The notes beneath the pieces were generated by a model. That model searched no databases. It saw only the letters and a list, made by a program, of their open reading frames with translations, and had not been told where the DNA came from. DNA of 64,000 nucleotides from a virus. Positions 19,422 through 62,138 of this stretch are shown piece after piece. The DNA lies in the IMG/VR virus record IMGVR_UViG_3300045988_138996, positions 32,001 through 96,000 of that record; one strand, given 5' to 3'. Position 1 is the stretch's first letter. Each line of letters starts with the position of its first letter. Both the position numbers and the translations under genes were made by a program.

Positions 19422-19425
19422 ACTT

Positions 19426-37303: not shown

Positions 37304-39024
37304 AACATTGCCAGCCCCATATGTTCAGTAATGAGCATATGCTAAACAGGAGTTAAACCGGGGAAGAACTTTAAGAGCTCGTTAAACTACAACGTAATTA
37401 GAAATGATAAGCGTGAATGTTGCGAAAGCTGAAAAAATTAACGAGATGATAATATGGTTAAATCCTAAGTTATCGTAAACAAGAGTTTGTTCCGGTAGGA
37501 ATGTCCGTATAGGACAACCTCTAACGACTATCCGATTGCGTCGGAGTACCTTTTATAATAAAGGGAAAAATACCTGGTCCCACTATGTGGGATTAACATA
37601 TAGTCTGTTCACGTTCTGTAATGGAAGTGCTATGAATTAACATAGGTTATTTAAATGATAAACATTATTAAAAAAATGCTGGCGGGCTGATTCTGGTTGG
37701 AGTGTATATTTGACATTTTAAATGTAATATAGTATTATAATAATATAAATATTTTATAATACGAGGTACTTTAAAATGGAAGAAAAACTTCAACGAATAT
37801 TAAATCTTTTATCTGAAGGAAAAAATTCAGAACAAATTTCATTAATTGTTTTTAAGACAAAAAATTGTGTTCAATTTAATCGATTTTGTTCTGAAAATAA
37901 TATTGATTTAAAACAATATAAAGCATTCAAATATATGGATAAAGAATGGCTTTCAGAACAATTAAAAAAATATAATAACAGTCCTACTATTTTGGCTAGA
38001 GAACTTAACTTATCATTAACTTCTGTAAATCGATATGCAATAGAATTTGGATTAAGAAAACCTAAAAAATCTATTGCATCAGTAAATCCTATAAATGAAA
38101 AATATTTTGATGAAGTGGATAATTTTAAAAAAGCCTATTGGCTTGGTTTTATTATGGCTGATGGTTATACTTATAAAACTCCTAATCGTGAAAAATATGA
38201 ATTAGCGATTAAAATTAAGTCTACAGATATTGATCATTTAAAAGAATTTGCTAAGGATGTTGAATTTCCAGAAGAAAAAATTGCTATAGGCTCTGGCAAA
38301 AGAAATGGCAATATTAATTATTATTGCCAATTAAGAACATATAATACACATTTAGTGACAACTGTTATGCATAAGCATAAAATTGTTCAAAATAAAACTT
38401 ATGTGCAATGTTTACCAGACAGTATTCCAAAAGAATATATCTCTGATTTTATTAGAGGATATTGGGATGGTAATGGCACTCTTAAAAAAGCCGGTTGGTC
38501 TGCATGTACAATGTCTTATCAATTAATAGAATCTTTTGTTAAATATTTTGATGAAAATAATATTGAATATACTTTAAGAAAAGAATTATGTAAAAGTGGG
38601 AACTATTTACATCTAATAAGAATAAGAAGTAAATCACATGATACTTTTGTTAAATTAATTTATCCTCCAGAAAAATATGCTTTAAAAAGAAAATATGATT
38701 TAATATATACGAGTCCACAGAATTAATTTCTGTGAATATAACTTAATTGCTGGGAACCCCTTAGAGCTTTTGATACCGAAGTGTAACAATTCAAAAGATT
38801 GGGCAATCAGCAGCGAAATCTTATTTTTTTAAATAAGATACGTTCAACGACTATCCCTTGGCTACCGCGTTAAAAATTAGCAATAGGAGTACGGCCTAAG
38901 TAGGCGGGTGAAATTCCCTTAATTGGAAATGGTTATCTTTAATTTAATTAAAGAAGATATAGTCTGGCCTAGTATGAAAATACTAGAAGGATTTAACGGT
39001 AACGGTTAAATTCATAACAAAGCG
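37304..39024 (+). mobile_element. terL intervening sequence 1: two complete group I cores flanking a LAGLIDADG gene
   Basis: Core A ~37350-37610 (P accgggg, Q ccggt, R taacgactatcc, S atatagtct). Core B ~38745-39024 (P ttgctggg, Q caatcagcagc, R ttcaacgactatcc, S gatatagtct). IGS cca-gcccc matches the ligated ggggU|tgg. Confidence 0.7.
37776..38726 (+). CDS. LAGLIDADG homing endonuclease with N-terminal HTH repeats
   Basis: YWLGFIMADGY and FIRGYWDGNGT motifs. Own promoter-like TTGACA at 37710. Confidence 0.8.
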   Translation: MEEKLQRILNLLSEGKNSEQISLIVFKTKNCVQFNRFCSENNIDLKQYKAFKYMDKEWLSEQLKKYNNSPTILARELNLSLTSVNRYAIEFGLRKPKKSIASVNPINEKYFDEVDNFKKAYWLGFIMADGYTYKTPNREKYELAIKIKSTDIDHLKEFAKDVEFPEEKIAIGSGKRNGNINYYCQLRTYNTHLVTTVMHKHKIVQNKTYVQCLPDSIPKEYISDFIRGYWDGNGTLKKAGWSACTMSYQLIESFVKYFDENNIEYTLRKELCKSGNYLHLIRIRSKSHDTFVKLIYPPEKYALKRKYDLIYTSPQN

Positions 39025-39184
39025 TGGATCTCTCTCGATGAAATGGATTATCTCGGCGAAGGTGACTTCGATACGATTTATGCGTTGTGTATGGAACGTG
39101 ATACGATCGGTATGACATGTTCTTCTACACCGACTGGTCGTAGATCGAAATTTTTCGATATATGTACCAAGAAGGAACTCGGGT
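39025..39184 (+). CDS. terL: terL coding segment 3 (Walker B, motif III)
   Basis: WISLDEMDY...CSSTPTGRRSKFF...KKELG, plus the first base of a Phe codon. Confidence 0.75.
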
Positions 39185-40606
39185 TAAAATAAATAAATTA
39201 GGTTTTTTATAGCAATTCCATCCAATATATGGTAATATATAATTGTAGTTATTTTACATATATTAATAAAAGGAATTGTTACTATGATTAATGAAGATGA
39301 ATTGAGAAGTAAATTAGAAGAAAAATCTGTAGCTCAAATAGCTAAAGATTATAATTGTTCAGAAAATACGATTAGAAGAGCAATGAAGAAGTTTGGATTA
39401 ATAAAAACTTCAAAGAAACCATATCAAAATAAAGAAATATTATTAGATATGTTGCAGACAAAAACAGTTCAAGAAATTGCAGATTATTTTAATGTTGATA
39501 ATCATACTATTTCTAGATGGATCAATAAAAATAATATATCTTTTAATGATAAAAAACTTTATAGAAATAAAGCTTGGCTTGAACAAAAATTAAAAGAATT
39601 TAATGGTTCTTTATCTGCTATATCTAAAGAAACAGGATATAAAAAAGACACAATGCTTGAATGGTGTTATAAGTTTAATTTAAAACACACACCTGATTTT
39701 AATAAAAAATATAATTTAAATATTGATTATTTTAAAAATATTGATTCTGAAATAAAAGCATATTATCTTGGTTTTGGTATGGCTGACTTTGGAATTAGCA
39801 AAGATTGTTATTCTTTTGAATTTAGATTAAAAAAAGATGATAAATATATTATTGAAAAATTAGCAAAAGAATTAAATTATACTGCTGATTTGTATCATTT
39901 TAAAGACAGTATTCGAGAAGGATATTCATTAAGAATTTCTTCAAAAGAAATATGTAAAGATTTAATTTATCATGGAATTGTTCCAAATAAGTCAGGAAAA
40001 GAAGTTTTGCCAAATACTGTTTCAAAAGAATTAATAAAACACTTTATTCGAGGTTTTATTGATGGAGATGGATATATTGGTGGTATAAAAGATAAAACTC
40101 TTGCTATTTGTAGTATGTCTTATAATATATTGTTATCAATTAAATTATTTTTAGAAAAAGAATTAAATATAAAAAAATATAAAATTAAACCAACATTAAA
40201 AGAAAGTGGAAATATTCTATATTATTATAATATATATGGTGATTCTTTTATTAAAGTTCTTGATTATTTATATAAAGATTCAACAATATATTTAATTAGA
40301 AAACATGATAATTATTTAATTCATTTGAATAAAGATATTAATCGTAAAAATAAAAAACTTAACAAGGCTCCATTATTAAGTAATTAATAATTGCAAATCT
40401 TTTGAACTGCTGGAACGTCCGTTAGGAAGATCAGCAGCGAAATCTTTAATTTTTTAAAGAAACGTTCAACGACTATCCTCGTGGTGAGGAGTAGGGTCAA
40501 GCGACTCGAAGCGGAAGATATCCTTTTAATAGGATAAAGATATAGTCTGAGCTATGTAGCAATACATAGAAGGTTGTAAGTAGCGATTACAATCGTAACA
40601 AAACTG
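39185..40606 (+). mobile_element. Group I intron with LAGLIDADG gene (terL intervening sequence 2)
   Basis: Core follows the ORF: P ctgctggaa, Q atcagcagc, R gttcaacgactatcc, S agatatagtct. The junction was chosen to give ELGFQEHY, like T4 gp17 SGFEPY. No P1 pairing found. Confidence 0.7.
39284..40387 (+). CDS. LAGLIDADG homing endonuclease with three HTH repeats
   Basis: YYLGFGMADFG and FIRGFIDGDGY motifs; HTH-like repeats SVAQIAKDYNCSENTIRR and TVQEIADYFNVDNHTISRW. Confidence 0.8.
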   Translation: MINEDELRSKLEEKSVAQIAKDYNCSENTIRRAMKKFGLIKTSKKPYQNKEILLDMLQTKTVQEIADYFNVDNHTISRWINKNNISFNDKKLYRNKAWLEQKLKEFNGSLSAISKETGYKKDTMLEWCYKFNLKHTPDFNKKYNLNIDYFKNIDSEIKAYYLGFGMADFGISKDCYSFEFRLKKDDKYIIEKLAKELNYTADLYHFKDSIREGYSLRISSKEICKDLIYHGIVPNKSGKEVLPNTVSKELIKHFIRGFIDGDGYIGGIKDKTLAICSMSYNILLSIKLFLEKELNIKKYKIKPTLKESGNILYYYNIYGDSFIKVLDYLYKDSTIYLIRKHDNYLIHLNKDINRKNKKLNKAPLLSN

Positions 40607-40928
40607 TCCAAGAGCATTATCACCCGACTCAACATAACCCCATGTGGTCGGATGCGATGGAAGAAGAATTTAGAAATACATACGATAAAAACGCATATGA
40701 TCACGAAGTATTGGCAGAGTTTGGTGTCGAAGAAGCCGGCGTATTCGATAAAGATAAAGTCGAAGAAGCGACACAAATCGACAACTATGCTTATTTCGAT
40801 CGAGATAAATATAAACCTGTTCGTTCTATGATGGATGATAGTAATGTAAAAGAAATACATATACTACCAGAAGGACGAACTACATATTATCCTAATGTAT
40901 TTAGATGTATGGGTGTGGATTGGGATTT
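40607..40928 (+). CDS. terL: terL coding segment 4
   Basis: ...QEHYHPTQHNPMWSDAMEEEFR...CMGVDWD, the start of the nuclease domain. The 3' boundary is approximate. Confidence 0.65.
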
Positions 40929-42228
40929 TAGGATCATTGGAGTTGATCGGAAAGTTTTTTGACAGATCTTTATTTTTGTTGTAATATAATAGTATAATAA
41001 ATTAATATTTTATTTTTAAATAATAGGAATTATTATGCTATATAAAAATGAACAATATTTAAAAGAAGCTGTTAAAACAAAAACCAATAGTCAAATTGCA
41101 AAAGAGAATAATATTAGCGCAGATACAGTAACATATTGGCTGAGAAAATATAATATAAAAAAATATGAAGAAAAAGCTCCTTATATGGACAAAGCATATA
41201 TGGCTGAATTATACAATAAGTATAAAAGTGGAAATAAAATTTCTAAATTATTAAATTGCAATGAAAAAACAATATATGCTTGGTTGGAAAAACACGGAAT
41301 AGATACTTCAGAAACTGGTAGCCAAGGAGCTAGAAAACATTTTTATAATGAAAATTATTTTAAAAAAATAGACACTGAAAGAAAAGCTTATTTTTTAGGT
41401 TTTATACTTGCTGATGGATGTGTTTATTTTGGAACAAATAAAAATTCATATAGATTTCAAATGAATTTACAGGCACAAGATAGATATATATTAGAAGAAC
41501 TTCAAAAAGATATTGAATCTGATTATAAAATTCAAGATAAACAATTTGGATATAGTAAAAATGGTGATCCAATTTTAATTTCTTTATTAAAAATTAATTC
41601 ATCTAAATTATGTGAAGATCTAATGAATCTTGGAGTTGTTCCTAGAAAATCTATGAGACAAGAAATGAAAAAAGATTTAATTCCTGATAAGTTGATTAAA
41701 CATTTTATTCGTGGTTACTTTGATGGAAACGGATCTTGTTCTATAAGAAAAAATTCAATCTCTTTAGATTTTTTAGGTAACAAAACAATATGTTTGCAAA
41801 TTGATGAGTATTTAAAATCAAATAAAATAAATAAAAATGTTCTATATGGGAACAAAAAAAATGAATTATATGGTTTAAGAATAAATAATACAGATAATAA
41901 AATTTTATTATATTATTATTTATATAAAGATGCTACTATTTACTTAAAGCGTAAAAAAGAAAAATTTGACAAATTTCTCCAATGTAAAAAAAGTCCTCTT
42001 ATTAAGTAATTAATAAGTAATAAACTGGTTGAATTGCTGGAATATCCTAAATGGACAATCAGCAGCCAAGTCTCTAGTAGAGAAAGGTTCAACGACTATC
42101 CTTGTATAAGGAGTAGGATCAAGCGATCCGAAGTGGCCAGCAACCTAGTAATAGGTCGAAGATATAGTCTAATCTATATAGTAATATATAGCAGCTTAAA
42201 AGCGTATTAAGTTTAGCGAACTTAATAG
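40929..42228 (+). mobile_element. Group I intron with LAGLIDADG gene (terL intervening sequence 3)
   Basis: P ttgctggaa, Q caatcagcagc, R gttcaacgactatcc, S gatatagtct after the ORF. Boundaries are good to a few nt only. Confidence 0.65.
41035..42009 (+). CDS. LAGLIDADG homing endonuclease with HTH repeats
   Basis: YFLGFILADGC and FIRGYFDGNGS motifs; promoter-like TTGACA upstream. Confidence 0.8.
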   Translation: MLYKNEQYLKEAVKTKTNSQIAKENNISADTVTYWLRKYNIKKYEEKAPYMDKAYMAELYNKYKSGNKISKLLNCNEKTIYAWLEKHGIDTSETGSQGARKHFYNENYFKKIDTERKAYFLGFILADGCVYFGTNKNSYRFQMNLQAQDRYILEELQKDIESDYKIQDKQFGYSKNGDPILISLLKINSSKLCEDLMNLGVVPRKSMRQEMKKDLIPDKLIKHFIRGYFDGNGSCSIRKNSISLDFLGNKTICLQIDEYLKSNKINKNVLYGNKKNELYGLRINNTDNKILLYYYLYKDATIYLKRKKEKFDKFLQCKKSPLIK

Positions 42229-42421
42229 AATATACATGAAATCACAAGCCCCAACATCTATACTTATACTTGAATACGATCAAGTATTTAATAAATTTAG
42301 AGTTATTAATAGAACAGAAATCGAATCGTCTGAATTTACATTCGATAAAGCTGTTAAAAAGATAATTGATTTAAATGCTATTTATAACCCTAGCTATATT
42401 TATATAGACAGAGGATCTGGT
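42229..42421 (+). CDS. terL: terL coding segment 5
   Basis: ...KSQAPTSILILEYD...YIYIDRGSG. The 3' end is set by the P1 hairpin ggU-aa/tt-gcc (42419-42432). Confidence 0.65.
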
Positions 42422-42685
42422 AAATATTTGCCCTATATATTATAAGTGAATTATATAATATATATGCAGTGTGGTATTAAGCGAGAAGCCTAAGTTAATT
42501 AATTAATATGGTAACTCGAACCGAAGACTTAATTAAATTAAGTCAGGGGCAGAGCATAGTAAGTGAAAAGATATAATCTTGCCAAGAGACCGCACCATAC
42601 ATTCACAATACGTATGAAAAAGTATGCCGACCTTATAGGAAACTATAAGAACTAGGAGATAAAAAGCTCCTAGGATAACAACGTG
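42422..42685 (+). mobile_element. ORF-less intervening sequence in terL, probably a divergent group I intron
   Basis: U-G wobble P1 at the 5' splice site and a terminal G at 42685. Splicing gives DRGSG|EYQMESL, matching T4 gp17 NSTG|VSVAKSL. The core differs from the other introns. Confidence 0.55.
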
Positions 42686-43264
42686 GAATATCAGATGGAA
42701 TCTTTAAAGATTTACGGTAAACAACATCCTGAAACCGGACTCGATAAAAAAGTTAAAGGTTGGATGTTCTCCGAAAAAATCGATGTACAAGATCCTGTCA
42801 CTGGTACTTTAGAAAAGAAACATTTAAAACCATTTATGGTGAATCAATTATCGATATTAATTGAACGCGGTAATCTTATATTGAGTCCTTGGGACGCACA
42901 TATATATAAACAATTAATTGATTATCGTGTCGAAAAAATTACGGCGGCAGGTGTTCCTGTTTATAACAGTGATAACGAGCACTTTGTCGATGCTTTGGGT
43001 TTAGCTTATTTAGCGTTCGTTGAACATTTTCCAGAACTTACTAAGTTAGTTAAAAAAGCATCGTATGAAGCCGTCTATTCATTTAATAGTGGTAATTCTC
43101 TACCACTATATGAAAAACGAGATCTTGAAAATCCATGGTCTAATGAAAAGAAACAATATGAATCAGTAGACGAAGCATGGGAAAAAGTTCCGCTTAACGA
43201 TTCGTTTAATAGACGTACGTCTAGAAAACCTTTAGGCGGAATGTTTAAAAGGACATTATTTTAA
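42686..43264 (+). CDS. terL: terL coding segment 6 (nuclease domain C-terminus)
   Basis: ...LIERGNLILS...NEHFVDALGLAYLAF parallels T4 gp17 ...YHDDLVMSLVIFGW. Confidence 0.8.
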   Translation, partial: EYQMESLKIYGKQHPETGLDKKVKGWMFSEKIDVQDPVTGTLEKKHLKPFMVNQLSILIERGNLILSPWDAHIYKQLIDYRVEKITAAGVPVYNSDNEHFVDALGLAYLAFVEHFPELTKLVKKASYEAVYSFNSGNSLPLYEKRDLENPWSNEKKQYESVDEAWEKVPLNDSFNRRTSRKPLGGMFKRTLF

Positions 43265-44919: not shown

Positions 44920-44972
44920 TATTAGTATGGTATAATAAATTCATATTGATATATTTTGTACAAGGAAAATAA

Positions 44973-46721: not shown

Positions 46722-46729
46722 GTAAGATA

Positions 46730-47032: not shown

Positions 47033-47035
47033 ATA

Positions 47036-48286: not shown

Positions 48287-48303
48287 TAGGAGATAAATTT
48301 TAA

Positions 48304-49887: not shown

Positions 49888-49905
49888 TAGGAGCTTTAAA
49901 ATATA

Positions 49906-51126: not shown

Positions 51127-51160
51127 TATTCTTAACGATTTGTTAATTGAATGAGTAATT

Positions 51161-51190
51161 AAGGGGAGCTTTCGGGCTCCCCTTTTTTTA
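51161..51190 (+). terminator. Intrinsic terminator after the capsid gene
   Basis: aggggagc-tttcgg-gctcccct followed by T7. Confidence 0.8.
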
Positions 51191-51209
51191 ATATACAAGA
51201 GGTATTTTA

Positions 51210-51830: not shown

Positions 51831-51841
51831 GAAGGAAGATT

Positions 51842-54107: not shown

Positions 54108-54108
54108 T

Positions 54109-55101
54109 ATGACTGCCGACGATAAACACACGAGTCTATTAATTATTGGTAATTCTGAATCGACAAATAAAACATGTAAAATTGAAAAATTTAATACGTT
54201 ATATAATGTCGAAAAAGAATATGGAAAAGATTCTGATTTGTATTTGGCTTATAAATTAGCTAAAAATTATCATGCTCCAGATGTTTATTTGGTAAATATG
54301 CGTACGTTATCAGATTTTATAAACATAACAAAACAATTAATAGATTGTGACTTTGCATATATATGTCCAACAAAAATAATGTTTTCCGATCGTTTTACAG
54401 ATCGTTATAATAAAGATTTAACTGATTATTATTTAAATGTATTATCTAGTAATTGTTATAAAAATCGTAGTATGATTATCGTTACTGATAAACATAGTTC
54501 TTTATTTGAAGACATCGATGAGTTTAATAATTACTATGATGCTATCGTACAAAAGTTTACTTCTGTGCATAATAAGAATAAATTTTTAGATAATATAATT
54601 TTAGTAGGCAATAATTTAAAATATATTCAGTATAGTAATATAGTTGTAGCGGCAAAATTAGCCGCCACGCCTATCAACGAGTACCCACTTTTATCAAATG
54701 AGGATACCGACTTTATATTAGATTATAAAGATATGCTTCCTAATGTCGTCTATTACAGAAATAGTTCATTAGTCGGTACAACAGTTGAAAATTTAGTTAA
54801 CCTATCTAGCGAAAATCCTAATAAATCTGTTATGGTAATGCGTATTATTTATTACCTAGTCAGAGAAATGGACTTCGATGAATATATAGGAAAAAATTAT
54901 CGGAAGTTTTATCTGTTAAAGATAAGAGACCGATTAGAATCCTTATTAAAACAAAATGTAGGATTTGTTCTATACGACTATCATATCGATAGCGTTGAAG
55001 AACAATTAAGAGAAAATGGATTAGGGGTCGACATTATACTTCGGTATACGTTGTATCCTTTATTCACGACAGAGTCATATACTGCGGAACAGAGGTTATA
55101 A
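54109..55101 (+). CDS. Hypothetical neck/tail protein
   Basis: Coupled ORF. Confidence 0.45.
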   Translation: MTADDKHTSLLIIGNSESTNKTCKIEKFNTLYNVEKEYGKDSDLYLAYKLAKNYHAPDVYLVNMRTLSDFINITKQLIDCDFAYICPTKIMFSDRFTDRYNKDLTDYYLNVLSSNCYKNRSMIIVTDKHSSLFEDIDEFNNYYDAIVQKFTSVHNKNKFLDNIILVGNNLKYIQYSNIVVAAKLAATPINEYPLLSNEDTDFILDYKDMLPNVVYYRNSSLVGTTVENLVNLSSENPNKSVMVMRIIYYLVREMDFDEYIGKNYRKFYLLKIRDRLESLLKQNVGFVLYDYHIDSVEEQLRENGLGVDIILRYTLYPLFTTESYTAEQRL

Positions 55102-55814
55102 TGACAGACGAACTTACTCATGATGAACGATTTATAATCGATCAGATAAAAGCAAAAAAAAATAGCCTGTCAGTAGTCAATGCTCCCGGTAGGCTAATGA
55201 ATAATCGACGCAGAGTCGATCGATTAAGGGCTGAACAGTCCATTAGTTTTGATGAATTTATCGAGCTGCTCGTTAAATTAGTCGAAAAAGCGTTATATGA
55301 AGATCAAGTTAAAATGAGCCCAGACGAAGGGGCTACGATTAACGATCGCGACAGACCAATTAATAATCCCTATATTTTCTTTAAAATTATATCTGGCAAA
55401 ACTATTAATAGTATTAAACCGAGATTAATGGAGAATATTATCAGACGTGCTCCAGGTCATCCTGAATATCGTCCAGATAATAAATATCCTGTTAAAGAAA
55501 ATATTGAAGAAGAAGGTGTTGAAGTATATTGTCATGCATTCGAATATGTACTTCAATTTGATATCTTCGCTAGCAGTTATGCAACGGCTAATAAAGTCTT
55601 AAAAGATTTTGAAGAACTTATGTATGACTATACGGGTTATGTTAAAAGTCGTGGTGTAAATGAACTTTTATATGATCAACGCTTAACAGACGAATCTAAC
55701 GTTCAATATCGAGAAAAATATTCAGTTAGAAGTGTTCGCTACATTTTAAGAATAGACAAGATATTTGTTGTTACTCGCAAACTTATCGAACGTCTATTAA
55801 ATCTTGATAAATAA
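55101..55814 (+). CDS. Hypothetical neck/tail protein
   Basis: Coupled ORF directly upstream of the sheath gene. Confidence 0.45.
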   Translation: MTDELTHDERFIIDQIKAKKNSLSVVNAPGRLMNNRRRVDRLRAEQSISFDEFIELLVKLVEKALYEDQVKMSPDEGATINDRDRPINNPYIFFKIISGKTINSIKPRLMENIIRRAPGHPEYRPDNKYPVKENIEEEGVEVYCHAFEYVLQFDIFASSYATANKVLKDFEELMYDYTGYVKSRGVNELLYDQRLTDESNVQYREKYSVRSVRYILRIDKIFVVTRKLIERLLNLDK

Positions 55815-55837
55815 TTATTAATCTAAGAGGTTGAATA

Positions 55838-58800
55838 ATGGCGTACTCTTTCAAAGAGGAAATCCTCCGCGATCTTCCTGGTGTGTTTGTCGAAGTCAAT
55901 TCTGTAAAGAAAAAACTTTATGACGACAGCCAATTCGGTACAACTGACGCAGTGCTTTGTATCGGTACTGCATTCGATGGTCCTAACGGTGTTCCTGTGC
56001 CTATTTATGATCCATCTTATGCAACATATACTTATGGCGATACTTATAATCGCGAAACTAAACGTGAAGTAGACTTAACAGCTACATTGGCTGATGCATA
56101 TAATTCCGGTTGCCGTACTTTGTATGGTTTCCGTATCGGTGGTTCTGAAGCTCAAAAAGATTTTAAATTGCGTTCTGACGATACTCTTCGTTTCCGTGTA
56201 AAATCTCGCTTCCCATCTAACAAAGCTAAACAAGTATACTTTACTTTCGATAATACTCCAGGTCAAGAAGTTCTTACTATCTATAAACCTGTATCTAAAG
56301 CGACAACTTACGAACGTTACAATGCTATGATTGATAACGAAGAAGAAATGATTAAAGTTGAAATTCCTTTGGGCCTTATGGGTGCTGGCTTTACTGCCGA
56401 TACTCCTATCTCCGAAGTAATTCGTCATATCAATAACTTTCCTCGTAACAATGTTGTTACTTTGTCTATCGTAAATAAAAAAGGTCAAGATGTTACACTT
56501 CGTAAAGATTCTTACGAATTAGCTCTTGGTTCTATTTTCCCTGGTACATACTTCTTAGGTCGTAAACGCTCCTTAGTACCTTGCCGTACAGAAGTTCGTA
56601 CTCATGTAATCAAATCTAAAAAATCTCCAAAACCTTTCGGTTCCTTTACTGGTAAATATTTCCATACTCTTCGTATTAATACAGACGTTAATGCTGAATA
56701 TCCTATTTACTCTGTAAGTGATAAAGATTTGAACGAAGCCTTCACTACTGTAGGCTTGAAAATGTATACTCATAATGATTATCTTCGTACTCCTGGTGCA
56801 TCTGCATTAGCATTCGAAGAAGATGATAACGATTATGAAGATACTAATATGACTAACTTCCAAAAATACATGAAGTTAGGTTCTGGCTTTGCTATTACAG
56901 CAACAGCTTATCCTCGTACAAATTCTACTGGTCAATATTTGACTCCTCGTGTAAAAGAATCTGACGTTAAAGATAAACAATACGTAGTATCTATTGGTGA
57001 AGGTGCATACTCTGTATTGCAAAACGCTGATATGCCTTATCGTGTATTGGGCGCTCAAATTTGTGCCGATACTGTAATTGGCGGTCGCCTTCCTAAACCA
57101 AAAGATTTCTTAAAAGCATTCCCTATCGATGCTGTTATGGTTAATACTGTAGCAGGTGGTGCTCCTGTAGTCGATACCGAAATGTTTAAAATAACTCCTG
57201 TAGTTAATGTTAAAGATACTAAACATTCTCCACGTTCTTATAAATTTAGCTTTGCTAAAGTAGATAATGCTGCAGAAATTACTGACGAAAACATTTATCA
57301 AAACGAAGTATTTACAGTTATCCCTTCTGTAGCTAATGAAGCTGCTTTGGATTTAGATCATAAAACTTATGAAGCTGGTCAAACATTCTACTTTGAAGAC
57401 ACTAAAGAAGTGAAATCTATTACGTTCGATGGTAAGCTTCAAAATGCTGTTTCTCCACATCAAAAATTCAAACACTTCGTTACGAAAGATAAAATTATCG
57501 AAGCAGAACCAGCAACTGGTAATACTGTAACATTTAAAGAAATCGCATCTCTTGCTGATCTTCAATATGATACAGCTATGAATGGTTTGTTGACAGATGC
57601 TGATGCAACGACTGCTGCATACTATGCAACGACTGCTGCTGCTGCTACTGCAACTGCTGCTAATGCTAAATACGTATTACTTTCTGTTAATGACGTATTA
57701 TGTGTTGGCAAATATGATGCTGGCGCTGTAACTCCTATCGGTGAATATGACATCTTAACAGATAAAGATTCTCGTGACGATAAAGTCGTTACTTATATTG
57801 AAAACTTCGATTGCGTAGACAACCGTGTTATCATTTCCGTAACAGACTTCAACTATCGTACTGTAGCAGAATTTATTTCTGACTTAAAAGATAACGTTAA
57901 CTTCACTGATAACTTTACTGTGGAATTGACTGATAATGGTATCGTTGAAAAAGATGCTCTTATCGAAGAAGTGTTAGAACCTGTATTGGTTGGCGGCAAA
58001 GTTGCGTTAGCTACTTTGGCTAAAGACCGTACTATCGATTACGATTATACTATGCGTATTCCTTATCGTACTCCTGATAACTTCGCTCGTCAATTGGCAC
58101 AACATTGCTTGTATACAGAATTAAAAACTGCTCATACTCATGGTTTGATCGGTGTTGAACGTATCTCTGACTACACATTGTCTGGCGTCGAACAAAAATT
58201 CCAAGATTTGAATAGTTTAAATCTTAACCTAGAATTGAAACGTGGTAACGGTCGTTCTGTAATCGATGACGACGGTGCTCCTGTCGATATCGGCCGTTCT
58301 ATTTCTTGTACATTCTTCCAAAACAATGTACCAGTTTATAATTCTACTTACGCATATGTAGGTAACGGTGCTGCAGCTTATGCTGGTATGGTTTCCGCAT
58401 TGCCTGTAGAACAATCTCCTACGAACCAAAAAATCGGCATTTCTCCATTGTTTGAATTAACAGCTTCTCAATTATCTAACTTAACTTCTAAAGGTATTGT
58501 TACAGTTAAGAATACATTTACTCGTGGTTATGTAATTACAGATGGCTGTACAATGGCAGATCCAACTGATGCATTGTCTCGTCTTAATAGTGTTCGTATC
58601 ATCGACGCTGTTGAACGTGCTATTCGCCGTGTTTGTGAACCATTTATCGGTAAACAAAATACAATCTCCGTTCGTAACTCTATCCAAACAGGTTTGACAT
58701 CTGAGTTGAATAAACTTAAAGGTGTATTGTTATATGACTACTTATTCGAAATTGCTAATGACGTAACTGCTCTTCAATATACTTATATTGATATCAATTA

Positions 58801-58870
58801 CACTATTATGCCATTTAACGAAATTCGTCAAATCAATAACTACATTCAAATTCGTCAACCTGGTACCTAG
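55838..58870 (+). CDS. Tail sheath protein (1010 aa)
   Basis: N-terminal LPGVFVEVNS...AVLCIGTAFDGPNG and C-terminal KGIVTVKNTFTRGYVITDG are typical of sheath proteins. Followed by the tube gene. Highly expressed codon usage. Confidence 0.75.
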   Translation: MAYSFKEEILRDLPGVFVEVNSVKKKLYDDSQFGTTDAVLCIGTAFDGPNGVPVPIYDPSYATYTYGDTYNRETKREVDLTATLADAYNSGCRTLYGFRIGGSEAQKDFKLRSDDTLRFRVKSRFPSNKAKQVYFTFDNTPGQEVLTIYKPVSKATTYERYNAMIDNEEEMIKVEIPLGLMGAGFTADTPISEVIRHINNFPRNNVVTLSIVNKKGQDVTLRKDSYELALGSIFPGTYFLGRKRSLVPCRTEVRTHVIKSKKSPKPFGSFTGKYFHTLRINTDVNAEYPIYSVSDKDLNEAFTTVGLKMYTHNDYLRTPGASALAFEEDDNDYEDTNMTNFQKYMKLGSGFAITATAYPRTNSTGQYLTPRVKESDVKDKQYVVSIGEGAYSVLQNADMPYRVLGAQICADTVIGGRLPKPKDFLKAFPIDAVMVNTVAGGAPVVDTEMFKITPVVNVKDTKHSPRSYKFSFAKVDNAAEITDENIYQNEVFTVIPSVANEAALDLDHKTYEAGQTFYFEDTKEVKSITFDGKLQNAVSPHQKFKHFVTKDKIIEAEPATGNTVTFKEIASLADLQYDTAMNGLLTDADATTAAYYATTAAAATATAANAKYVLLSVNDVLCVGKYDAGAVTPIGEYDILTDKDSRDDKVVTYIENFDCVDNRVIISVTDFNYRTVAEFISDLKDNVNFTDNFTVELTDNGIVEKDALIEEVLEPVLVGGKVALATLAKDRTIDYDYTMRIPYRTPDNFARQLAQHCLYTELKTAHTHGLIGVERISDYTLSGVEQKFQDLNSLNLNLELKRGNGRSVIDDDGAPVDIGRSISCTFFQNNVPVYNSTYAYVGNGAAAYAGMVSALPVEQSPTNQKIGISPLFELTASQLSNLTSKGIVTVKNTFTRGYVITDGCTMADPTDALSRLNSVRIIDAVERAIRRVCEPFIGKQNTISVRNSIQTGLTSELNKLKGVLLYDYLFEIANDVTALQYTYIDINYTIMPFNEIRQINNYIQIRQPGT

Positions 58871-58892
58871 TAGTTTTTAATTAAAGAAGGAG

Positions 58893-58913
58893 GGGGCGGA
58901 TAACCTCCGCCCC
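58893..58913 (+). other. GC hairpin between an AAGGAGG box and the tube gene start codon
   Basis: ggggcgga-taacc-tccgcccc. SD-like aaggagg at 58887-58893; ATG at 58926. Confidence 0.6.
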
Positions 58914-58925
58914 ATTATTTAACAC

Positions 58926-59126
58926 ATGGCTTACTCTAATAACTCTGGTGTAACTACAGCGTCTGAATACACTCGTAGTTATACTACTTTTTCCGGCTGT
59001 GATATCGTAGCTACATTCGGTTCCGAAGTAGTAGCTGAAATTCAAGGTATTACAGTTTCTATTAATCGTGAAAAGGCTCCAGTGTACACCTTCGGGAGTG
59101 CAGAGCCTCGTTCTATCTCGAGAGGT
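58926..59126 (+). CDS. Tail tube protein, exon 1
   Basis: YTRSYTTFSGCDIVATFG...REKAPVYTFGS aligns with the uninterrupted paralog at 62429. P1: gagaggU pairs with gcttctc (59142-59148). Confidence 0.8.
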
Positions 59127-60063
59127 AAAAATTCCGCGTTTGCTTCTCCTTTGCAGTAATGCAATGTATAATTAAACTCTGTGATATGCTGGAAACCCCT
59201 TAGAGCCTTTAGTACCAAAGTGTGACAATCTAAAGGATTGGGCAATCAGCAGGCAGCGTAAGCGCCTCAACGACTATCCGTAAGGAGTACATCATAACAG
59301 CTGATGGAAGTGCAGAGCTCCCTTTTTCGTGTCATATGTGGCATTGCAAATAATTTTTCTATGTAATATAATAATAGAAAAGGAGATGATCACATATGAA
59401 GTATAAATATAATTTAGATTTTTTTAAAAATGATTCACCTGAAAAATATTATTTCTATGGTTTTTTAGCGTCAGATGGTTATATTTCAGATGATAAAATT
59501 AGCATTGGAATAAATGTTAAAGATAGAGAAATATTAGAAAAATTTCAAAAATTAATTTGTCCAGAAAAACCAATTTATGAAAAGACACAAACAAATTCTT
59601 TAAAATTTGAAATAACAAATAAGGATTTGTCAAAAAAATTAAAAAAATATTTTTCTATGATAACCAATAAAAAATATGAAGAAATCAGGTTTCCAAATGT
59701 TCCAGAAAAATATCTTAAAGATTTTATCCGTGGTGTAATTGATGGAGATGGAAATATCGATACAACAAAAGGATATCAAAAAGACAAAATTTATATTGGA
59801 GCAAGATTAAGAATATTAGGAAATAAGGAATTCTTAATAGAATTAAATGAAAAAACTAAATTATTATATCCACATAATACCAATGCAGTAAATAAAAAAG
59901 GAAAAGAAAATGTTTATGTGATAACATATAATTTTAAAACTGCTAGAGAATTATTAAGAATAATATATTATGATGGATGTTTATCGTTAACAAGAAAATT
60001 TAATCGATCTAGGGATGAAGATATAGTCTCAACAATTACGAAAGTTATTGATAAGAAAAAATG
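59127..60063 (+). mobile_element. Group I intron with LAGLIDADG gene in the tail tube gene
   Basis: P atgctggaaa, Q caatcagcagg, R ctcaacgactatcc. S gaagatatagtct lies inside the 3' end of the endonuclease ORF. Terminal G at 60063. Confidence 0.8.
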
Positions 60064-60064
60064 A
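59396..60064 (+). CDS. LAGLIDADG homing endonuclease
   Basis: YYFYGFLASDGY and FIRGVIDGDGN motifs. The TGA stop spans the 3' splice site. Confidence 0.8.
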   Translation: MKYKYNLDFFKNDSPEKYYFYGFLASDGYISDDKISIGINVKDREILEKFQKLICPEKPIYEKTQTNSLKFEITNKDLSKKLKKYFSMITNKKYEEIRFPNVPEKYLKDFIRGVIDGDGNIDTTKGYQKDKIYIGARLRILGNKEFLIELNEKTKLLYPHNTNAVNKKGKENVYVITYNFKTARELLRIIYYDGCLSLTRKFNRSRDEDIVSTITKVIDKKK

Positions 60065-60177
60065 AACGCGGTATTGCTGGTACTATTGTATTCACATTGT
60101 TCGACCGTGATGCCCTTGTAGATGCTCTTGCTGTTCGTGCAGCTAAAGCAGCTTATTTCCAACGTATCGGCGGTGAT
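60064..60177 (+). CDS. Tail tube protein, exon 2 (38 codons)
   Basis: KRGIAGTIVFTLFDRD... aligns with paralog RTIAGSMVFAVLDKH. The 3' end is approximate (set after TGAT). Confidence 0.7.
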
Positions 60178-60531
60178 TTGGCGGTAGCCTAGTCGGCATA
60201 TAAAGTAATTTGTATGTCTGCAAATATATGATAGTTTGTATTTGCACCGATTGGATCGAATTGCTGGGAAATCCTAAAGCTTAAAATACCTTAATGGTTG
60301 TGAAAACAGAAATAAATTTTAAGATGATATATGGTTAAAACCTAAGTATTATAATAATGGACAATCAGCAGCGAAGTCGCAATATTGCGAAACGTTCAAC
60401 GACTATCTCGTGAAGAGAGTAGGATAAAATGCTTTCCGAAGTGGTCCATCCCATACAGTGGGAAATGATATAGTCTATGCTTATATGAAAGTATAAGAAA
60501 AACAAATTTAGCAAATTTGTGTATAAAATAT

Positions 60532-60560
60532 TTGACAATAATTAATATCACCATTATAAT
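60532..60560 (+). promoter_or_regulatory. Consensus promoter for tnpB inside the intron
   Basis: TTGACA (60532-60537), 17 nt spacer, TATAAT (60555-60560). Confidence 0.6.
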
Positions 60561-60589
60561 ATTCTTATAAACAAGAAAGGATATTATAT

Positions 60590-61678
60590 ATGGAAAAAAG
60601 ATTTTTATTACAAATATATCCAACAAAAGAACAAGAAAAATTAATACAAAGAACATTTGGATGCGCAAGATTCGTTTATAATTATTTTTTAGATTATAGA
60701 ATAAAAAAATATAATGAAGAAAATATTTCTTTAACTGCTAATGATTGTAGTAAAATATTAACTTCATTAAAAAAAGAAAAAGAATTTTTGCAAATTCCAG
60801 ATAAATATGCATTACAAAATGTATTAAAAGATTTAGATATGGCTTATAAAAGATTTCAAAAAGGAATTGCGAATTACCCAAAGTTTAAATCTAGAAGTAA
60901 TTATAAGACATATAGAACAAATCGATCTGGTAATAAAATTAGATTTGTTTCTGATAATATAATTATTCTTCCTAAGTTAAGAGAAGTTAAGTTTAGGAAC
61001 AATATTGTTCCAGATGGCGAAATTGTGAATGTTGCAATTATACAAAAACCTTCTGGTAAATATTATGCGTCTGTTCTTTGTAGAAATTGCAAAGTAAAAA
61101 ATATTGAAAAAACTGGCAAAAGTGTTGGTATAGATTTAGGAATAAAAGATTATATTGTTACATCTGATGGACAAAAAATTCCAAATAATCATTTTCTAAA
61201 AAAGACAATATCTAAAATAAAGAAAATGCAAAAAGAATTTGATAGAAAAAAAGATGGTAGCAATAATAAAGAAAAATTAAGAATTAAAATAGCTAAACAA
61301 TATGAAAAACTAACAAATGCAAGAAAAGATTATATTCATAAACTTTCTATGAAATTAATAGAAGAATATGATGATATTTGCATTGAAGATTTAAAGATAA
61401 AAGATATGGTTAAAAATAAACTTTTGTCTTTTGATATAATGGATTGTTCATGGTATGAATTACGAAGACAGCTTGAATATAAAGCAAAATTCTATAATAA
61501 AAGAATTCATATTGTTGATAGATATTTTCCATCGAGTAAAAAATGTTCAGTTTGTGGTTATAAAAAAGAAGATCTTTCGCTTGATGATCGATTTTGGACT
61601 TGTCCAGATTGTAATACCACTCATGATAGAGATATAAATGCAGCTAAAAATATTCTTAAAGAAGGAATGAAAAATTAA
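60590..61678 (+). CDS. tnpB: TnpB (IS200/IS605-family RNA-guided nuclease), apparently intact
   Basis: RuvC-I VGIDLG, RuvC-II ICIEDL, Zn finger CSVCG...CPDCN, RuvC-III HDRDINAAKNI. No tnpA nearby. Confidence 0.85.
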   Translation: MEKRFLLQIYPTKEQEKLIQRTFGCARFVYNYFLDYRIKKYNEENISLTANDCSKILTSLKKEKEFLQIPDKYALQNVLKDLDMAYKRFQKGIANYPKFKSRSNYKTYRTNRSGNKIRFVSDNIIILPKLREVKFRNNIVPDGEIVNVAIIQKPSGKYYASVLCRNCKVKNIEKTGKSVGIDLGIKDYIVTSDGQKIPNNHFLKKTISKIKKMQKEFDRKKDGSNNKEKLRIKIAKQYEKLTNARKDYIHKLSMKLIEEYDDICIEDLKIKDMVKNKLLSFDIMDCSWYELRRQLEYKAKFYNKRIHIVDRYFPSSKKCSVCGYKKEDLSLDDRFWTCPDCNTTHDRDINAAKNILKEGMKN

Positions 61679-61759
61679 TTATTGTTGAACCGCAGGAATT
61701 GCGGAGATTGTCTTGAGACGTTTATCGTCAATAGAAATTTTATTTTATAAAAAATTCAG

Positions 61760-62131: not shown

Positions 62132-62138
62132 TAAATTC

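What the first reader, a model, noticed from the sequence alone, without database searches (positions are those of the whole stretch)
37304..61759. One ribozyme family carries two different mobility engines
**Shared core.** Five intervening sequences share nearly identical core elements: (t)tgctgg(g)aa, caatcagcagc, (g)ttcaacgactatc and gatatagtct. They are:
- terL IVS1 core B
- terL IVS2
- terL IVS3
- tube intron 1
- the tube IStron

**Different cargo.** Four carry LAGLIDADG endonuclease genes. In the terL copies the gene lies upstream of the core. In the tube copy it lies between R and S. The fifth carries tnpB, downstream of the core.

**Why it matters.** A single genome therefore samples the same intron scaffold with protein-guided and RNA-guided homing cargo at three different insertion points. 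That makes it a natural system for asking how the cargo was exchanged.
Basis: seen in the sequence. Interest (0 to 1): 0.7.

Follow-up and report, generated by a model that had tools for sequence, protein, structure and literature searches.

The report
Intron-riddled phage genes, one with TnpB
Two essential genes of a roughly 230-kb phage are split by seven self-splicing introns of a common phage intron class: four carry protein homing endonucleases and one is an "IStron" carrying the RNA-guided nuclease TnpB, so this is a well-documented new example of known elements rather than a new kind.

Summary
**Observation: confirmed.**
- All five intervening sequences are group I introns. Rfam gives 113, 92, 77 and 56 bits; tube intron 1 splits into 32 + 21 bits around its ORF.
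- Four encode LAGLIDADG proteins, three in the P1 loop and one in the P8 loop.
- The fifth is an IStron, with an intact ISDra2-like tnpB 3' of the ribozyme.

**Interpretation: partly supported.**
- The four quoted motifs are the classical P, Q, R and S elements. They occur letter for letter in introns of unrelated Bacillus, Clostridioides, Enterocloster and Alicyclobacillus phages.
- Homology does extend beyond them. But the IStron core is 55–68% identical to the four LAGLIDADG cores and 62–70% to introns of other phages.
- The cores fall into three P5-extension architectures, and the LAGLIDADG proteins are only 27–36% identical to each other.
- So this is the widespread IA2 class, not one lineage that swapped cargo in this genome.
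- Published work already reports this ribozyme family carrying TnpA, TnpB or homing endonucleases.

**Relatives.**
- Related metagenomic phages fix every splice junction.
- They supply ORF-less deletion derivatives and an IStron-free allele.
- One shows a second IStron nested inside the LAGLIDADG intron.

**Correction.** "terL IVS1" is two introns separated by a 12-nt micro-exon.

**Verdict.** New member of a known kind; a good natural system.

The parts
35783..43264 (+). terL (large terminase) gene. It has six exons, five group I-type insertions and one intein.
   Evidence: Pfam finds Terminase_6N and Intein_splicing. The spliced translation is continuous and in frame. Junctions come from intron-less alleles in L013, L014 and L015.
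36041..37033 (+). Intein of 331 aa, with a LAGLIDADG domain, in the terL Walker A region (GRR|C...HN|TGKT).
   Evidence: Pfam Intein_splicing 91.6 bits plus LAGLIDADG_3. Coordinates.
37304..37679 (+). terL intron 1A: an ORF-less group I intron of the long-P5 type. Its boundary is uncertain by 1 nt (37303-37678 or 37304-37679). P1 pairs GGGG(U) with GCCCC at 37314-37318.
   Evidence: Absent from L013 and L014. It has no Rfam hit. Its P5 extension is up to 87% identical over 92 nt to Staphylococcus phage introns. It fits the RNAalifold consensus of long-P5 introns with compensatory pairs.
37680..37691 (+). 12-nt micro-exon TGGCGGGCTGAT, encoding WRAD, between introns 1A and 1B.
   Evidence: Intron-less L014 reads SIRG-WRAD-WISLDE. 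L013 reads ...GGGTGGCGTGCCGAT| followed by intron 1B.
37692..39024 (+). terL intron 1B.
- Promoter-like site 37710-37738.
- LAGLIDADG ORF 37776-38726, in the P1 loop.
- Medium-P5 ribozyme core 38692-39024.
   Evidence: Rfam 76.6 bits. Pfam LAGLIDADG_3 45.4 bits. An ORF-less orthologue exists in L013. Promoter 11 of 12.
39185..40606 (+). terL intron 2.
- LAGLIDADG ORF with HTH domains, 39284-40387, in the P1 loop.
- Short-P5 core 40350-40606.
   Evidence: Rfam 92.2 bits. Pfam. Absent in L013. ORF-less deletion derivatives in L014 and L015 keep the ORF's 3' end.
40927..42238 (+). terL intron 3.
- Promoter-like site 40959-40987.
- LAGLIDADG ORF with HTH domains, 41035-42009, in the P1 loop.
- Short-P5 core 41976-42238.
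- P1 pairs GGGAU with GUCCU.
   Evidence: Rfam 113.1 bits. Pfam. Intron-less L014 reads GVDWD|KSQAPTS. ORF-less derivative in L013.
42422..42685 (+). terL intron 4: an ORF-less 264-nt insertion of uncertain class.
   Evidence: Absent from L013 and L014, which read DRGSG|EYQMES. The 5' exon ends in U and the insert ends in G. Rfam group I gives only 14.5 bits. Homologous unannotated stretches occur in other phages.
58926..62134 (+). Tail tube gene. Exons are 58926-59126, 60064-60177 and 61760-62134.
   Evidence: It follows the sheath gene. The spliced protein has more than 3000 homologues, many uninterrupted at about 210 aa.
59127..60063 (+). Tube intron 1.
- Medium-P5 group I intron.
- P1 pairs GAGAGGU with GCUUCUC at 59142-59148.
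- Promoter-like site 59344-59372.
- LAGLIDADG ORF 59396-60064 in the P8 loop, running through P8', P7' and P9 to the 3' splice site.
   Evidence: Rfam split hits of 32.0 and 21.0 bits. Pfam. Absent from L011 and L012, which read SISRG|KRGIAGT. A 76%-identical orthologue exists in L022.
60178..61759 (+). Tube IStron, 1582 nt. It is inserted after GGTGAT and ends ...ATTCAG.
   Evidence: The IStron-free allele in L018-L021 reads ...GGCGGCGAT|ATTAACTATCAG. The same element sits at the same site in L011 and L012.
60178..60530 (+). IStron ribozyme, P1 to P9.1, of the long-P5 type. The P1 hairpin is GGUGAU.UUGGC / GCCUA.GUCGGC.
   Evidence: Rfam 56.3 bits. RNAalifold on 11 long-P5 introns predicts 52 pairs, 32 of them with compensatory changes. 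P5, P6 and P8 covary between the window, L011 and L012.
60532..60560 (+). Perfect TTGACA-17-TATAAT promoter-like site upstream of tnpB.
   Evidence: 12 of 12 matches, the best site in the region. Function is inferred.
60590..61678 (+). tnpB, 362 aa, ISDra2-like. The RuvC residues D, E, D and the zinc-finger cysteines are present.
   Evidence: Pfam. PDB ISDra2 TnpB 8EXA/8H1J at 264.9 bits over the full length. dN/dS is 0.09-0.24 against the orthologues.
60535..60546 (+). 5' arm of the 12-nt perfect inverted repeat that brackets tnpB. The 3' arm is 61674-61685.
   Evidence: the repeat finder pair I12. Conserved in L011 and L012. Corresponds to the IR stem described for IStrons.
61686..61759 (+). 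3' non-coding end of the IStron: two covarying hairpins (61690-61704 and 61717-61729), then the A/U tail and TCAG. Inferred to be the omega-RNA scaffold 3' part and right end. The 3' splice site follows G61759.
   Evidence: Compensatory changes across the window, L011 and L012: CCGCAGG..UGCGG against CCGUAGG..UACGG, and GACG..CGUC against GACAC..GUGUC against GAUAU..AUAUC. The role is inferred from PMC10690162.
61760..61779 (+). Predicted omega-RNA guide and TnpB target: the first ~16-20 nt of exon 3, ATTAACTATCAACCGTACAC.
   Evidence: Inferred from the IS605 TnpB mechanism. The IStron-free L018 allele differs at positions 12 and 18 and in the TAM (GCGAT against GTGAT).

Best explanation
**Overall.** The region holds independently acquired members of the widespread IA2 class of phage and Firmicute group I introns. 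They have colonised two essential late genes of a jumbo phage of about 230 kb.

**terL.** It carries an intein and five insertions:
- intron 1A, ORF-less, with a long P5 extension;
- a 12-nt micro-exon;
- introns 1B, 2 and 3, each with a LAGLIDADG gene in the P1 loop;
- intron 4, ORF-less and of uncertain class.

**Tail tube gene.** It carries a LAGLIDADG intron with the ORF in the P8 loop, and an IStron that lacks tnpA and fits the group A (IS200/IS605) pattern in most respects.

**How the RNAs work.** Each RNA folds into the group I core, pairs the U-ending 5' exon with an internal guide sequence, and splices itself out. This restores the terminase and tube reading frames.

**How the LAGLIDADG introns spread (inferred).** The proteins are made from their own promoters. 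They cut intron-less alleles in co-infecting relatives, and repair copies the intron in. Afterwards the ORFs decay by deletion.

**How the IStron works (inferred).**
- Ribozyme at the 5' end.
- A 12-bp inverted-repeat stem that loops out tnpB.
- A structured 3' end that either supplies the 3' splice site or is kept as omega-RNA.
- The omega-RNA guide is the first ~16-20 nt of exon 3. It directs TnpB to IStron-free alleles next to an NTGAT-like motif.

**Shown versus inferred.**
- Shown: anatomy, exact boundaries, presence/absence polymorphism, purifying selection, covariation.
- Inferred: splicing, endonuclease activity, homing.
For: **Group I identity.** Rfam scores and covariation.

**Cargo identity.** Pfam and PDB ISDra2 TnpB at 264.9 bits.

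**Exact junctions from natural intron-less alleles.**
- tube intron 1 is absent in L011 and L012.
- The IStron is absent in L018-L021, which read RIGGD|INYQPY.
- terL introns 1A and 1B are absent in L014, 2 is absent in L013, and 3 and 4 are absent in L014.
- The spliced terL and tube translations are continuous.

**IStron hallmarks (described in PMC4227781).**
- The 5' exon ends in U.
- The 3' end is TCAG.
- A 12-nt perfect inverted repeat brackets the ORF.
- The nearest TnpB relatives (44-52% identical) are also IStron-borne in phage-like contigs, inserted after TTGAT or GTGAT and ending TCAG.

**Long residence under selection.**
- The IStron parts are 82-83% identical to L012, against 82% for the sheath gene.
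- TnpB dN/dS is 0.09-0.24.
- The 3' hairpins covary.

**Homing-endonuclease life cycle.**
- ORF-less introns 2 and 3 retain ORF remnants.
- There are 8 synonymous differences within -6 to +18 of the tube intron 1 site against a 3% background.

**Class-wide rather than genome-specific similarity.**
Against: - There are no RNA or biochemical data. Splicing, endonuclease activity and omega-RNA processing are inferred.
- The motif 5' of the IStron is GTGAT (GAGAT in L012). It is not one of the published group A pentanucleotides TTGAT, ATTAT or TTTAT.
- Some P1 pairings are short, at 3-5 bp.
- Intron 1A has no Rfam hit. Its boundary violates either the U(-1) rule or the terminal-G rule.
- Intron 4 is not demonstrably group I.
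- The neighbour-joining tree of cores is poorly resolved apart from orthologous pairs. An old common origin of some window introns cannot be excluded; introns 2 and 3 are 76% identical.
- The external panel was small, at about 19 introns.
Confidence: 0.85

Rival explanations
1. One reading: the five cores are one lineage that diversified inside this genome or its close ancestors, and cargo (LAGLIDADG or TnpB) was swapped onto the same scaffold at three insertion points.
For: - All five are IA2 with identical P, Q, R and S elements.
- Introns 2 and 3 are 76% identical over core columns and cluster weakly, at 64% bootstrap.
- Intron 1B and tube intron 1 share an 86%-identical 66-nt P4-P5 stretch.
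- In the relative L022 an IStron sits inside the LAGLIDADG intron, which shows that the two cargo types can come together physically.
Against: - The IStron core is 55-68% identical to the LAGLIDADG cores and 62-70% to unrelated phage introns.
- Its long P5 extension is absent from all four LAGLIDADG cores, but is shared with IStrons of phages LY2, c-st and ES-S-0173-01 and with a GIY-YIG intron.
- The medium P5 extension of intron 1B and tube intron 1 is equally present in AR9 and in a Clostridioides phage.
- The LAGLIDADG proteins are 27-36% identical.
- Each intron is present or absent independently in relatives.
Confidence: 0.08
2. The resemblance is only the universal P/Q/R/S nucleotides, and the introns are otherwise unrelated.
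For: - The four quoted motifs are exactly P, Q, R and S, and they are shared with many unrelated phage introns.
- BLAST between some pairs finds only short segments.
Against: - The cores align over 158 columns of at least 90% occupancy, at 55-76% identity.
- That alignment includes P3, P6, P7.1/P7.2, P8 and P9.
- Introns 2 and 3 give 73.7% over 175 nt in BLAST.
- All have the insertion between P7 and P3' that is typical of IA2.
Confidence: 0.04
3. The tnpB element is not an IStron. It is an ordinary IS605-type insertion that landed in the 3' part of a pre-existing tube-gene intron, so ribozyme and IS are separable units.
For: - There is no tnpA.
- tnpB has its own promoter.
- TnpB genes without introns are common in phages such as Geobacillus E3, Brochothrix A9 and phiNIT1.
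Against: - The IStron-free allele lacks ribozyme and tnpB together, precisely from GAT| to |ATT.
- No relative has the ribozyme alone at this site.
- The element's 5' end is the 5' splice site and its 3' end (TCAG) is the 3' splice site.
- The nearest TnpB relatives all have the same ribozyme-plus-tnpB organisation at other sites.
Confidence: 0.03

Closest known systems
Group A IStrons (CdISt1 of Clostridioides difficile and relatives; group I intron fused to an IS200/IS605 element; PMC4227781, PMC10690162)
   Same: - IA2 ribozyme at the 5' end.
- ISDra2-like tnpB 3' of P9.
- Element ends coincide with the splice sites.
- The 5' exon ends in U and the 3' end is TCAG.
- An inverted-repeat stem encloses the ORF.
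- A structured 3' end overlaps the 3' splice site.
- Copies with TnpB only are common.
   Different: - It sits in a phage structural gene (tail tube), not a bacterial chromosome.
- The flanking motif is GTGAT or GAGAT rather than TTGAT, ATTAT or TTTAT.
- There is no tnpA remnant.
- It is inherited in step with the phage backbone across about 18% divergence.
Group B IStrons CbISt3/CbISt4 of Clostridium botulinum phages c-st and D-1873, and the unannotated IStron in the portal gene of Bacillus phage vB_BceH_LY2
   Same: - They are phage-borne IStrons.
- They have the same long-P5 IA2 ribozyme architecture. Over core columns LY2 is 70% and c-st 66% identical to the window IStron core.
   Different: - They are IS607-type: inserted after GG, ending in CGG, with RAGATH-18 RNA downstream of tnpB.
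- The window element has none of these.
IA2 group I introns of Herelleviridae and other phages (Twort, Kayvirus, SPO1-like, AR9/PBS1) carrying HNH, GIY-YIG or LAGLIDADG genes
   Same: - The same P/Q/R/S elements and the same three P5 architectures.
- Multiple introns per essential gene.
- ORFs in peripheral loops.
- Presence/absence polymorphism.
- phiIPLA-RODI also has introns in its tail tube gene.
   Different: - Here a LAGLIDADG intron and an IStron share one gene.
- terL has five insertions and an intein.
Survey in Zedaveinyte et al. (PMC10690162) of IStron-type group I introns associated with TnpA, TnpB, homing endonucleases and other genes
   Same: It states the concept of the finding: closely related ribozymes carry different auxiliary genes, with recurrent gain and loss.
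   Different: That survey spans genomes. Here several cargo types sit within 25 kb of one phage genome, and polymorphic relatives are available.

Membership tests
Group I intron, subgroup IA2 (Rfam RF00028) | Conserved core P3-P9 with P, Q, R and S elements, scored by a covariance model | tested here: met
   Rfam gives 113.1, 92.2, 76.6 and 56.3 bits for introns 3, 2, 1B and the IStron. Tube intron 1 gives 32.0 + 21.0 bits as split hits. Intron 1A and intron 4 do not reach threshold.
Group I intron, subgroup IA2 (Rfam RF00028) | Extra helices P7.1/P7.2 between P7 and P3' | tested here: met
   All five have a 30-70 nt insertion right after GACUA, with two hairpins and the GAGUA..GAAG motif shared with known IA2 phage introns (alignments). 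Subgroup assignment follows PMC4227781 and PMC10690162, which class IStron ribozymes as IA2 and Twort-like.
Group I intron, subgroup IA2 (Rfam RF00028) | The 5' exon ends in U paired with G of an internal guide sequence, and the intron ends in G | tested here: met
   Junctions fixed by intron-less alleles give U(-1) and a terminal G for introns 1B, 2, 3, 4, tube intron 1 and the IStron. Intron 1A is ambiguous by 1 nt.
Group I intron, subgroup IA2 (Rfam RF00028) | Self-splicing activity | not testable with these tools
   There are no RNA data. It is inferred from intact essential genes after conceptual splicing and from covariation.
IStron, group A (IS200/IS605 type) | Group I ribozyme at the 5' end and IS ORF(s) at the 3' end, moving as one unit whose ends are the splice sites | tested here: met
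   The IStron-free allele in L018-L021 lacks exactly 60178-61759. The same unit is present in L011 and L012.
IStron, group A (IS200/IS605 type) | Inserted 3' of TTGAT, ATTAT or TTTAT | tested here: inconclusive
   The window and L011 have GTGAT and L012 has GAGAT. That is four, respectively three, of five positions of TTGAT. The related IStron in L031 is inserted after TTGAT, and the one in L022 after GTGAT.
IStron, group A (IS200/IS605 type) | 3' terminus is TCAG and the last 5'-exon nucleotide is U | tested here: met
   The element ends ...AAAAAATTCAG|ATTAAC and the exon ends ...GGTGAT|. L012 ends CCAG.
IStron, group A (IS200/IS605 type) | Inverted-repeat stem enclosing the ORF region | tested here: met
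   A 12-nt perfect inverted repeat at 60535-60546 and 61674-61685, conserved in L011 and L012.
IStron, group A (IS200/IS605 type) | ORF B is an IS200/IS605 TnpB of the ISDra2 kind | tested here: met
   Pfam finds three TnpB domains. ISDra2 TnpB structures score 264.9 bits over residues 3-359. DLG, IED and HDRD, plus CxxC...CxxC, are present.
IStron, group A (IS200/IS605 type) | Y1 TnpA (ORF A) or its remnants | tested here: not met
   Only 60 nt lie between the ribozyme and the tnpB promoter, and there is no ORF A.
IStron, group A (IS200/IS605 type) | Omega-RNA-guided cleavage of the empty site by TnpB | not testable with these tools
   Only the covarying 3' hairpins and purifying selection on tnpB are shown.
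IStron, group B (IS607 type) | Inserted after GG, ending in CGG, with a RAGATH-18-type RNA 3' of tnpB | tested here: not met
   The window IStron follows GAT and ends CAG. There is no RAGATH-18 hit in the window, although it is found in LY2 and c-st.
LAGLIDADG homing-endonuclease introns | An intron-encoded LAGLIDADG-domain protein, with presence/absence polymorphism of intron or ORF at a fixed site | tested here: met
   Pfam LAGLIDADG_3 in all four ORFs. Tube intron 1 is absent in L011 and L012. ORF-less introns 1B, 2 and 3 occur in L013-L015. Cleavage activity was not testable.
   From the core-column identity matrix and NJ tree, the IStron core is 55-68% identical to the LAGLIDADG cores and 62-70% to external introns. 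Only orthologues from related phages cluster with support.

The most novel reading that the evidence does not exclude
In this group of jumbo phages, TnpB-only IStrons may act as true RNA-guided homing introns. They would spread between co-infecting phages without any transposase, and could invade the conserved cores of other group I introns. In the relative L022, an IStron sits in J3/4 of the tube LAGLIDADG intron. Its predicted guide there is the conserved P4 strand. That would be a route by which ribozymes acquire or exchange cargo. The set of IStron-positive, IStron-free and nested alleles among close relatives would make the proposed, still unvalidated 'intron homing by TnpB' directly testable in phage crosses.
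Probability: 0.3. Interest if true: 0.6.

Novelty: new member of a known kind. Interest (0 to 1): 0.4.

Why it matters
**The concept is already published.** One IA2 ribozyme family carrying homing endonucleases or IS605/IS607 cargo has been described, and IStrons in phages have been known since 2014.

**What this locus adds is material.**
- It is a jumbo-phage lineage, seen in several metagenome assemblies.
- A LAGLIDADG intron and a tnpA-less IStron share one essential gene.
- Close relatives provide the empty site, ORF-less derivatives, a second IStron 8 codons away, and an IStron nested inside the LAGLIDADG intron.

**What that set could test.**
- Whether TnpB alone drives intron homing. 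A 2026 review calls this 'awaiting experimental validation'.
- How splicing and guide-RNA production are balanced in a gene that the phage cannot afford to lose.

Tried and rejected
1. **Splice sites guessed from hairpins plus the terminal-G rule.** My first guesses for terL intron 3 (42202 or 42228) and for 'IVS1' as a single intron were wrong. Intron-less alleles corrected them to 42238 and to two introns with a micro-exon.
2. **Megablast of the structural region against 50,697 phage records.** No match. The sheath protein gives only 28-30% identity to Moorella and Bacillus jumbo phages.
3. **Rfam at E<=1 over 26 kb.** It missed the IStron core and tube intron 1 because of the speed filters. 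Small-window searches found them.
4. **Rfam on intron 1A and intron 4.** Nothing significant.
5. **Genome-contig scan with TnpB.** It returned only 39-40%-identical Ruminococcus MAG copies with no ribozyme upstream, which were uninformative for origin.
6. **NJ tree of cores.** It was too poorly resolved to define clades beyond orthologues. I therefore relied on identity ranges and P5 architecture.
7. **Custom covariance model.** Considered, but not built, because Rfam plus alignments answered the question.

Full report
**1. What is in the window.**

The window comes from a phage genome of about 230 kb that is known only from metagenome assemblies. The window's own TnpB sequence is encoded on five contigs, the longest of 229,838 bp. 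No deposited phage is close to it. Megablast finds nothing, and the 1010-aa sheath protein is 28-30% identical to those of Moorella phage MTATph1 and Bacillus phage 0305phi8-36.

The finding spans two genes:
- the large terminase gene terL, 35783-43264;
- the tail tube gene, 58926-62134, just downstream of the sheath gene.

**2. Checking the observation.**

The four motifs occur once in each of the five named intervening sequences. They are commoner than in shuffled sequence. CAATCAGCAGC with up to one mismatch gives 5 hits against 0.5 expected.

Rfam's group I model (RF00028) confirms the cores:

| Core | Bits |
|---|---|
| terL intron 3 | 113.1 |
| terL intron 2 | 92.2 |
| terL 'IVS1 core B' | 76.6 |
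| tube IStron core, searched alone | 56.3 (gathering 50) |
| tube intron 1, 5' part (59131-59401) | 32.0 |
| tube intron 1, 3' part (60016-60048) | 21.0 |

The wide search missed the last three because of its speed filters.

Pfam finds LAGLIDADG_3 in the four ORFs, and the three TnpB domains in 60590-61678. The TnpB aligns over its full length with ISDra2 TnpB structures at 264.9 bits. The RuvC residues D, E, D and the zinc-finger cysteines are in place.

**3. Exact anatomy from natural alleles.**

Searches with TnpB, TerL exon 1 and the spliced tube protein led to related contigs whose introns differ.

*Tube gene.*
- L011 (about 97% identical) and L012 (about 79% identical) have the same IStron at the same site.
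- Both lack tube intron 1. This fixes that intron at 59127-60063 (SISRG|KRGIAGT).
- L018-L021 lack the IStron and read ...GGCGGCGAT|ATTAACTATCAG. This fixes the IStron at 60178-61759 (RIGGD|INYQPY).

*terL.*
- L014 has no intron at the 'IVS1' site and reads SIRG-WRAD-WISLDE.
- The window contains the WRAD codons (TGGCGGGCTGAT, 37680-37691) between 'core A' and the LAGLIDADG ORF.
- 'IVS1' is therefore two introns:
  - intron 1A at 37304-37679, with 1 nt of uncertainty;
  - intron 1B at 37692-39024.
- L013 has intron 1B alone, without an ORF.
- Intron 2 is 39185-40606 and intron 3 is 40927-42238.
- A further 264-nt insertion, intron 4, is 42422-42685.
- With these junctions terL translates without interruption.
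- terL also holds a 331-aa intein.

**4. Where the cargo sits.**

- **terL introns 1B, 2 and 3.** The 5' splice site is about 85-110 nt upstream of the ORF. The guide sequence that pairs with the 5' exon lies just after the ORF. So the ORF occupies the P1 loop. The P1 pairings are GGGU/GCUC for intron 2 and GGGAU/GUCCU for intron 3.
- **Tube intron 1.** P1 (GAGAGGU/GCUUCUC) to the 5' strand of P8 precede the ORF. P8', P7' and P9 lie inside its 3' end. So the ORF is in the P8 loop.
- **IStron.**
  - tnpB follows P9.1.
  - It is bracketed by a perfect 12-nt inverted repeat, 60535-60546 and 61674-61685.
  - Two hairpins follow. They covary among the window, L011 and L012.
- **Promoters.** The best promoter-like sites of both regions lie in front of the cargo genes: 12 of 12 before tnpB and 11 of 12 before the intron 1B ORF.

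**5. Is it one family?**

*The motifs are class-wide.*
- The motifs are the classical P, Q, R and S elements.
- They are present letter for letter in introns of these phages:
  - Bacillus phages LY2, phiNIT1 and AR9;
  - Enterocloster phage CB457P1;
  - Clostridioides phage ES-S-0107-01;
  - Alicyclobacillus phage KKP_3916.
- Sensitive BLAST of single cores finds 76 to 411 phage records.

*Identities do not single out the window.*

In a 25-intron alignment, 158 columns are shared by at least 90% of sequences.

| Comparison | Identity |
|---|---|
| Window cores with each other | 55-76% |
| IStron core with the four LAGLIDADG cores | 55-68% |
| IStron core with introns of unrelated phages | 62-70% |

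Only orthologues from related phages cluster with support.

*The P5 region defines three architectures.*

| P5 type | Window introns | Other introns |
|---|---|---|
| Short | 2, 3 | phiNIT1, AR9 |
| Medium | 1B, tube intron 1 | AR9, a Clostridioides phage |
| Long | IStron, 1A | IStrons of LY2 and c-st; the IStrons in L022, L031 and L034; Kayvirus tube-gene introns; a GIY-YIG intron |

*Other points.*
- RNAalifold on eleven long-type introns predicts 52 pairs, 32 of them with compensatory changes.
- The four LAGLIDADG proteins are 27-36% identical to each other.

But the family is the IA2 class as a whole, not a lineage that exchanged cargo in this genome.

**6. The IStron.**

It matches most published group A hallmarks (PMC4227781):
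- the 5' exon ends in U;
- the 3' end is TCAG;
- an inverted-repeat stem surrounds the ORF;
- the TnpB is ISDra2-like.

It differs in two ways:
- the flanking motif is GTGAT (GAGAT in L012) rather than TTGAT;
- there is no tnpA.

It is not group B. There is no GG target, no CGG end and no RAGATH-18 RNA, although that RNA is found in LY2 and c-st.

It has resided in this lineage for a long time:

| Part | Identity to L012 |
|---|---|
| Ribozyme | 81.6% |
| tnpB | 82.7% |
| 3' end | 82.7% |
| Sheath gene (for comparison) | 82.0% |

TnpB dN/dS is 0.09-0.24.

Its nearest TnpB relatives are also IStrons in phage-like contigs:
- L031, after ATTGAT and eight codons downstream in the tube gene of another phage;
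- L022, after CTCTGTGAT inside the tube LAGLIDADG intron;
- an unannotated element in Clostridioides phage ES-S-0173-01.

More distant Ruminococcus TnpBs have no ribozyme upstream.

**7. Dynamics of the endonuclease introns.**
- ORF-less introns 2 (L014, L015) and 3 (L013) keep the last codons of the ORF. They are deletion derivatives, not ancestors.
- L015 has a different intron, 66% identical, six nucleotides upstream of the intron 3 site.
- Around the tube intron 1 site, the window and L011 differ at 8 synonymous positions within -6 to +18. The background is 3%. This is as expected from co-conversion or from target-site escape.

**8. Comparison with the literature.**
- IStrons of both groups, all with IA2 ribozymes, and phage-borne group B IStrons are described in PMC4227781.
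- PMC10690162 reports that introns related to IStron ribozymes are associated with TnpA, TnpB, homing endonucleases and other genes. It also reports recurrent gain and loss between closely related introns.
- A 2026 review notes that TnpB-only IStrons imply intron homing that still awaits validation.

The finding is therefore a new member of known kinds. Its value is as a well-resolved natural system.

**9. Limits.**
- There are no expression or biochemical data.
- The external panel was small and the tree is weak.
- Intron 1A's boundary and intron 4's class are unresolved.

Noticed in passing
Intron 1A's junction breaks either the U(-1) rule or the terminal-G rule. That recalls the G-ending 5' exons of group B IStrons.
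   Followed up: yes
window 36041-37033: There is a 331-aa intein with a LAGLIDADG domain in the Walker A region of terL (GRR|C...SHN|TGKT). terL therefore carries both protein-level and RNA-level splicing elements.
   Followed up: partly
window 42422-42685: terL intron 4 is a 264-nt ORF-less insertion that is absent from L013 and L014. Its 5' exon ends in U and it ends in G. It has P9-like hairpins but scores only 14.5 bits against Rfam group I. Similar unannotated stretches occur in Clostridioides, Aeromonas and crAss-like phages.
   Followed up: partly
L022 2331-4077 (window equivalent 59185|59186): In a related 226-kb phage, a different group A-type IStron is nested inside the tube LAGLIDADG intron. 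Its TnpB is 44% identical to the window's, and its Rfam group I score is 85.7 bits. It lies after CTCTGTGAT, between P3 and P4, and ends GTCAG. Its predicted guide would be the conserved P4 strand ATGCTGGAA...
   Followed up: partly
L031 3190-5511: Another phage has an IStron (TnpB 52% identical) in its tail tube gene. It lies eight codons downstream of the window site, after a canonical ATTGAT, and ends GTTCAG. Tube genes of these phages are recurrent IStron targets.
   Followed up: partly
L015 13026-13277 against window 40927-42238: A 93%-identical relative carries a different ORF-less intron six nucleotides upstream of the window's intron 3 site (GVD|WD instead of GVDWD|K). It is 66% identical to the window's intron 3.
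   Followed up: partly
window 59121-59126 and 60064-60081: The window and the intron-less L011 differ at eight synonymous positions within -6 to +18 of the tube intron 1 insertion site. The background divergence is 3%.
   Followed up: yes
L018 3991-5040 and L022 1386-2244 (window equivalent 59083|59084): Relatives have a third tube-gene intron site, after REKAPV. That intron has a different-looking core and a 204-265-aa ORF distantly related to the LAGLIDADG ORFs. The site is empty in the window.
   Followed up: no
L001 4008-4071 and L002 4227-4296: RAGATH-18 RNA lies just downstream of tnpB in the IStrons of Bacillus phage LY2 (portal gene) and Clostridium phage c-st. This marks them as the IS607 type. 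The LY2 element is annotated only as 'transposase'.
   Followed up: no
L037 about 900-2740: Clostridioides phage ES-S-0173-01 (CP067352.1, unannotated) carries a group A-type IStron. It has a long-P5 ribozyme, a TnpB 48.8% identical to the window's, and a 3' end GGTTCAG.
   Followed up: partly
window 62429-63679: An uninterrupted 416-aa paralogue of the tube protein lies just downstream of the interrupted tube gene.
   Followed up: no
window 18957-19503: There is a cluster of five tRNA genes: Met, Ser, Tyr, Asp, Met.
   Followed up: no
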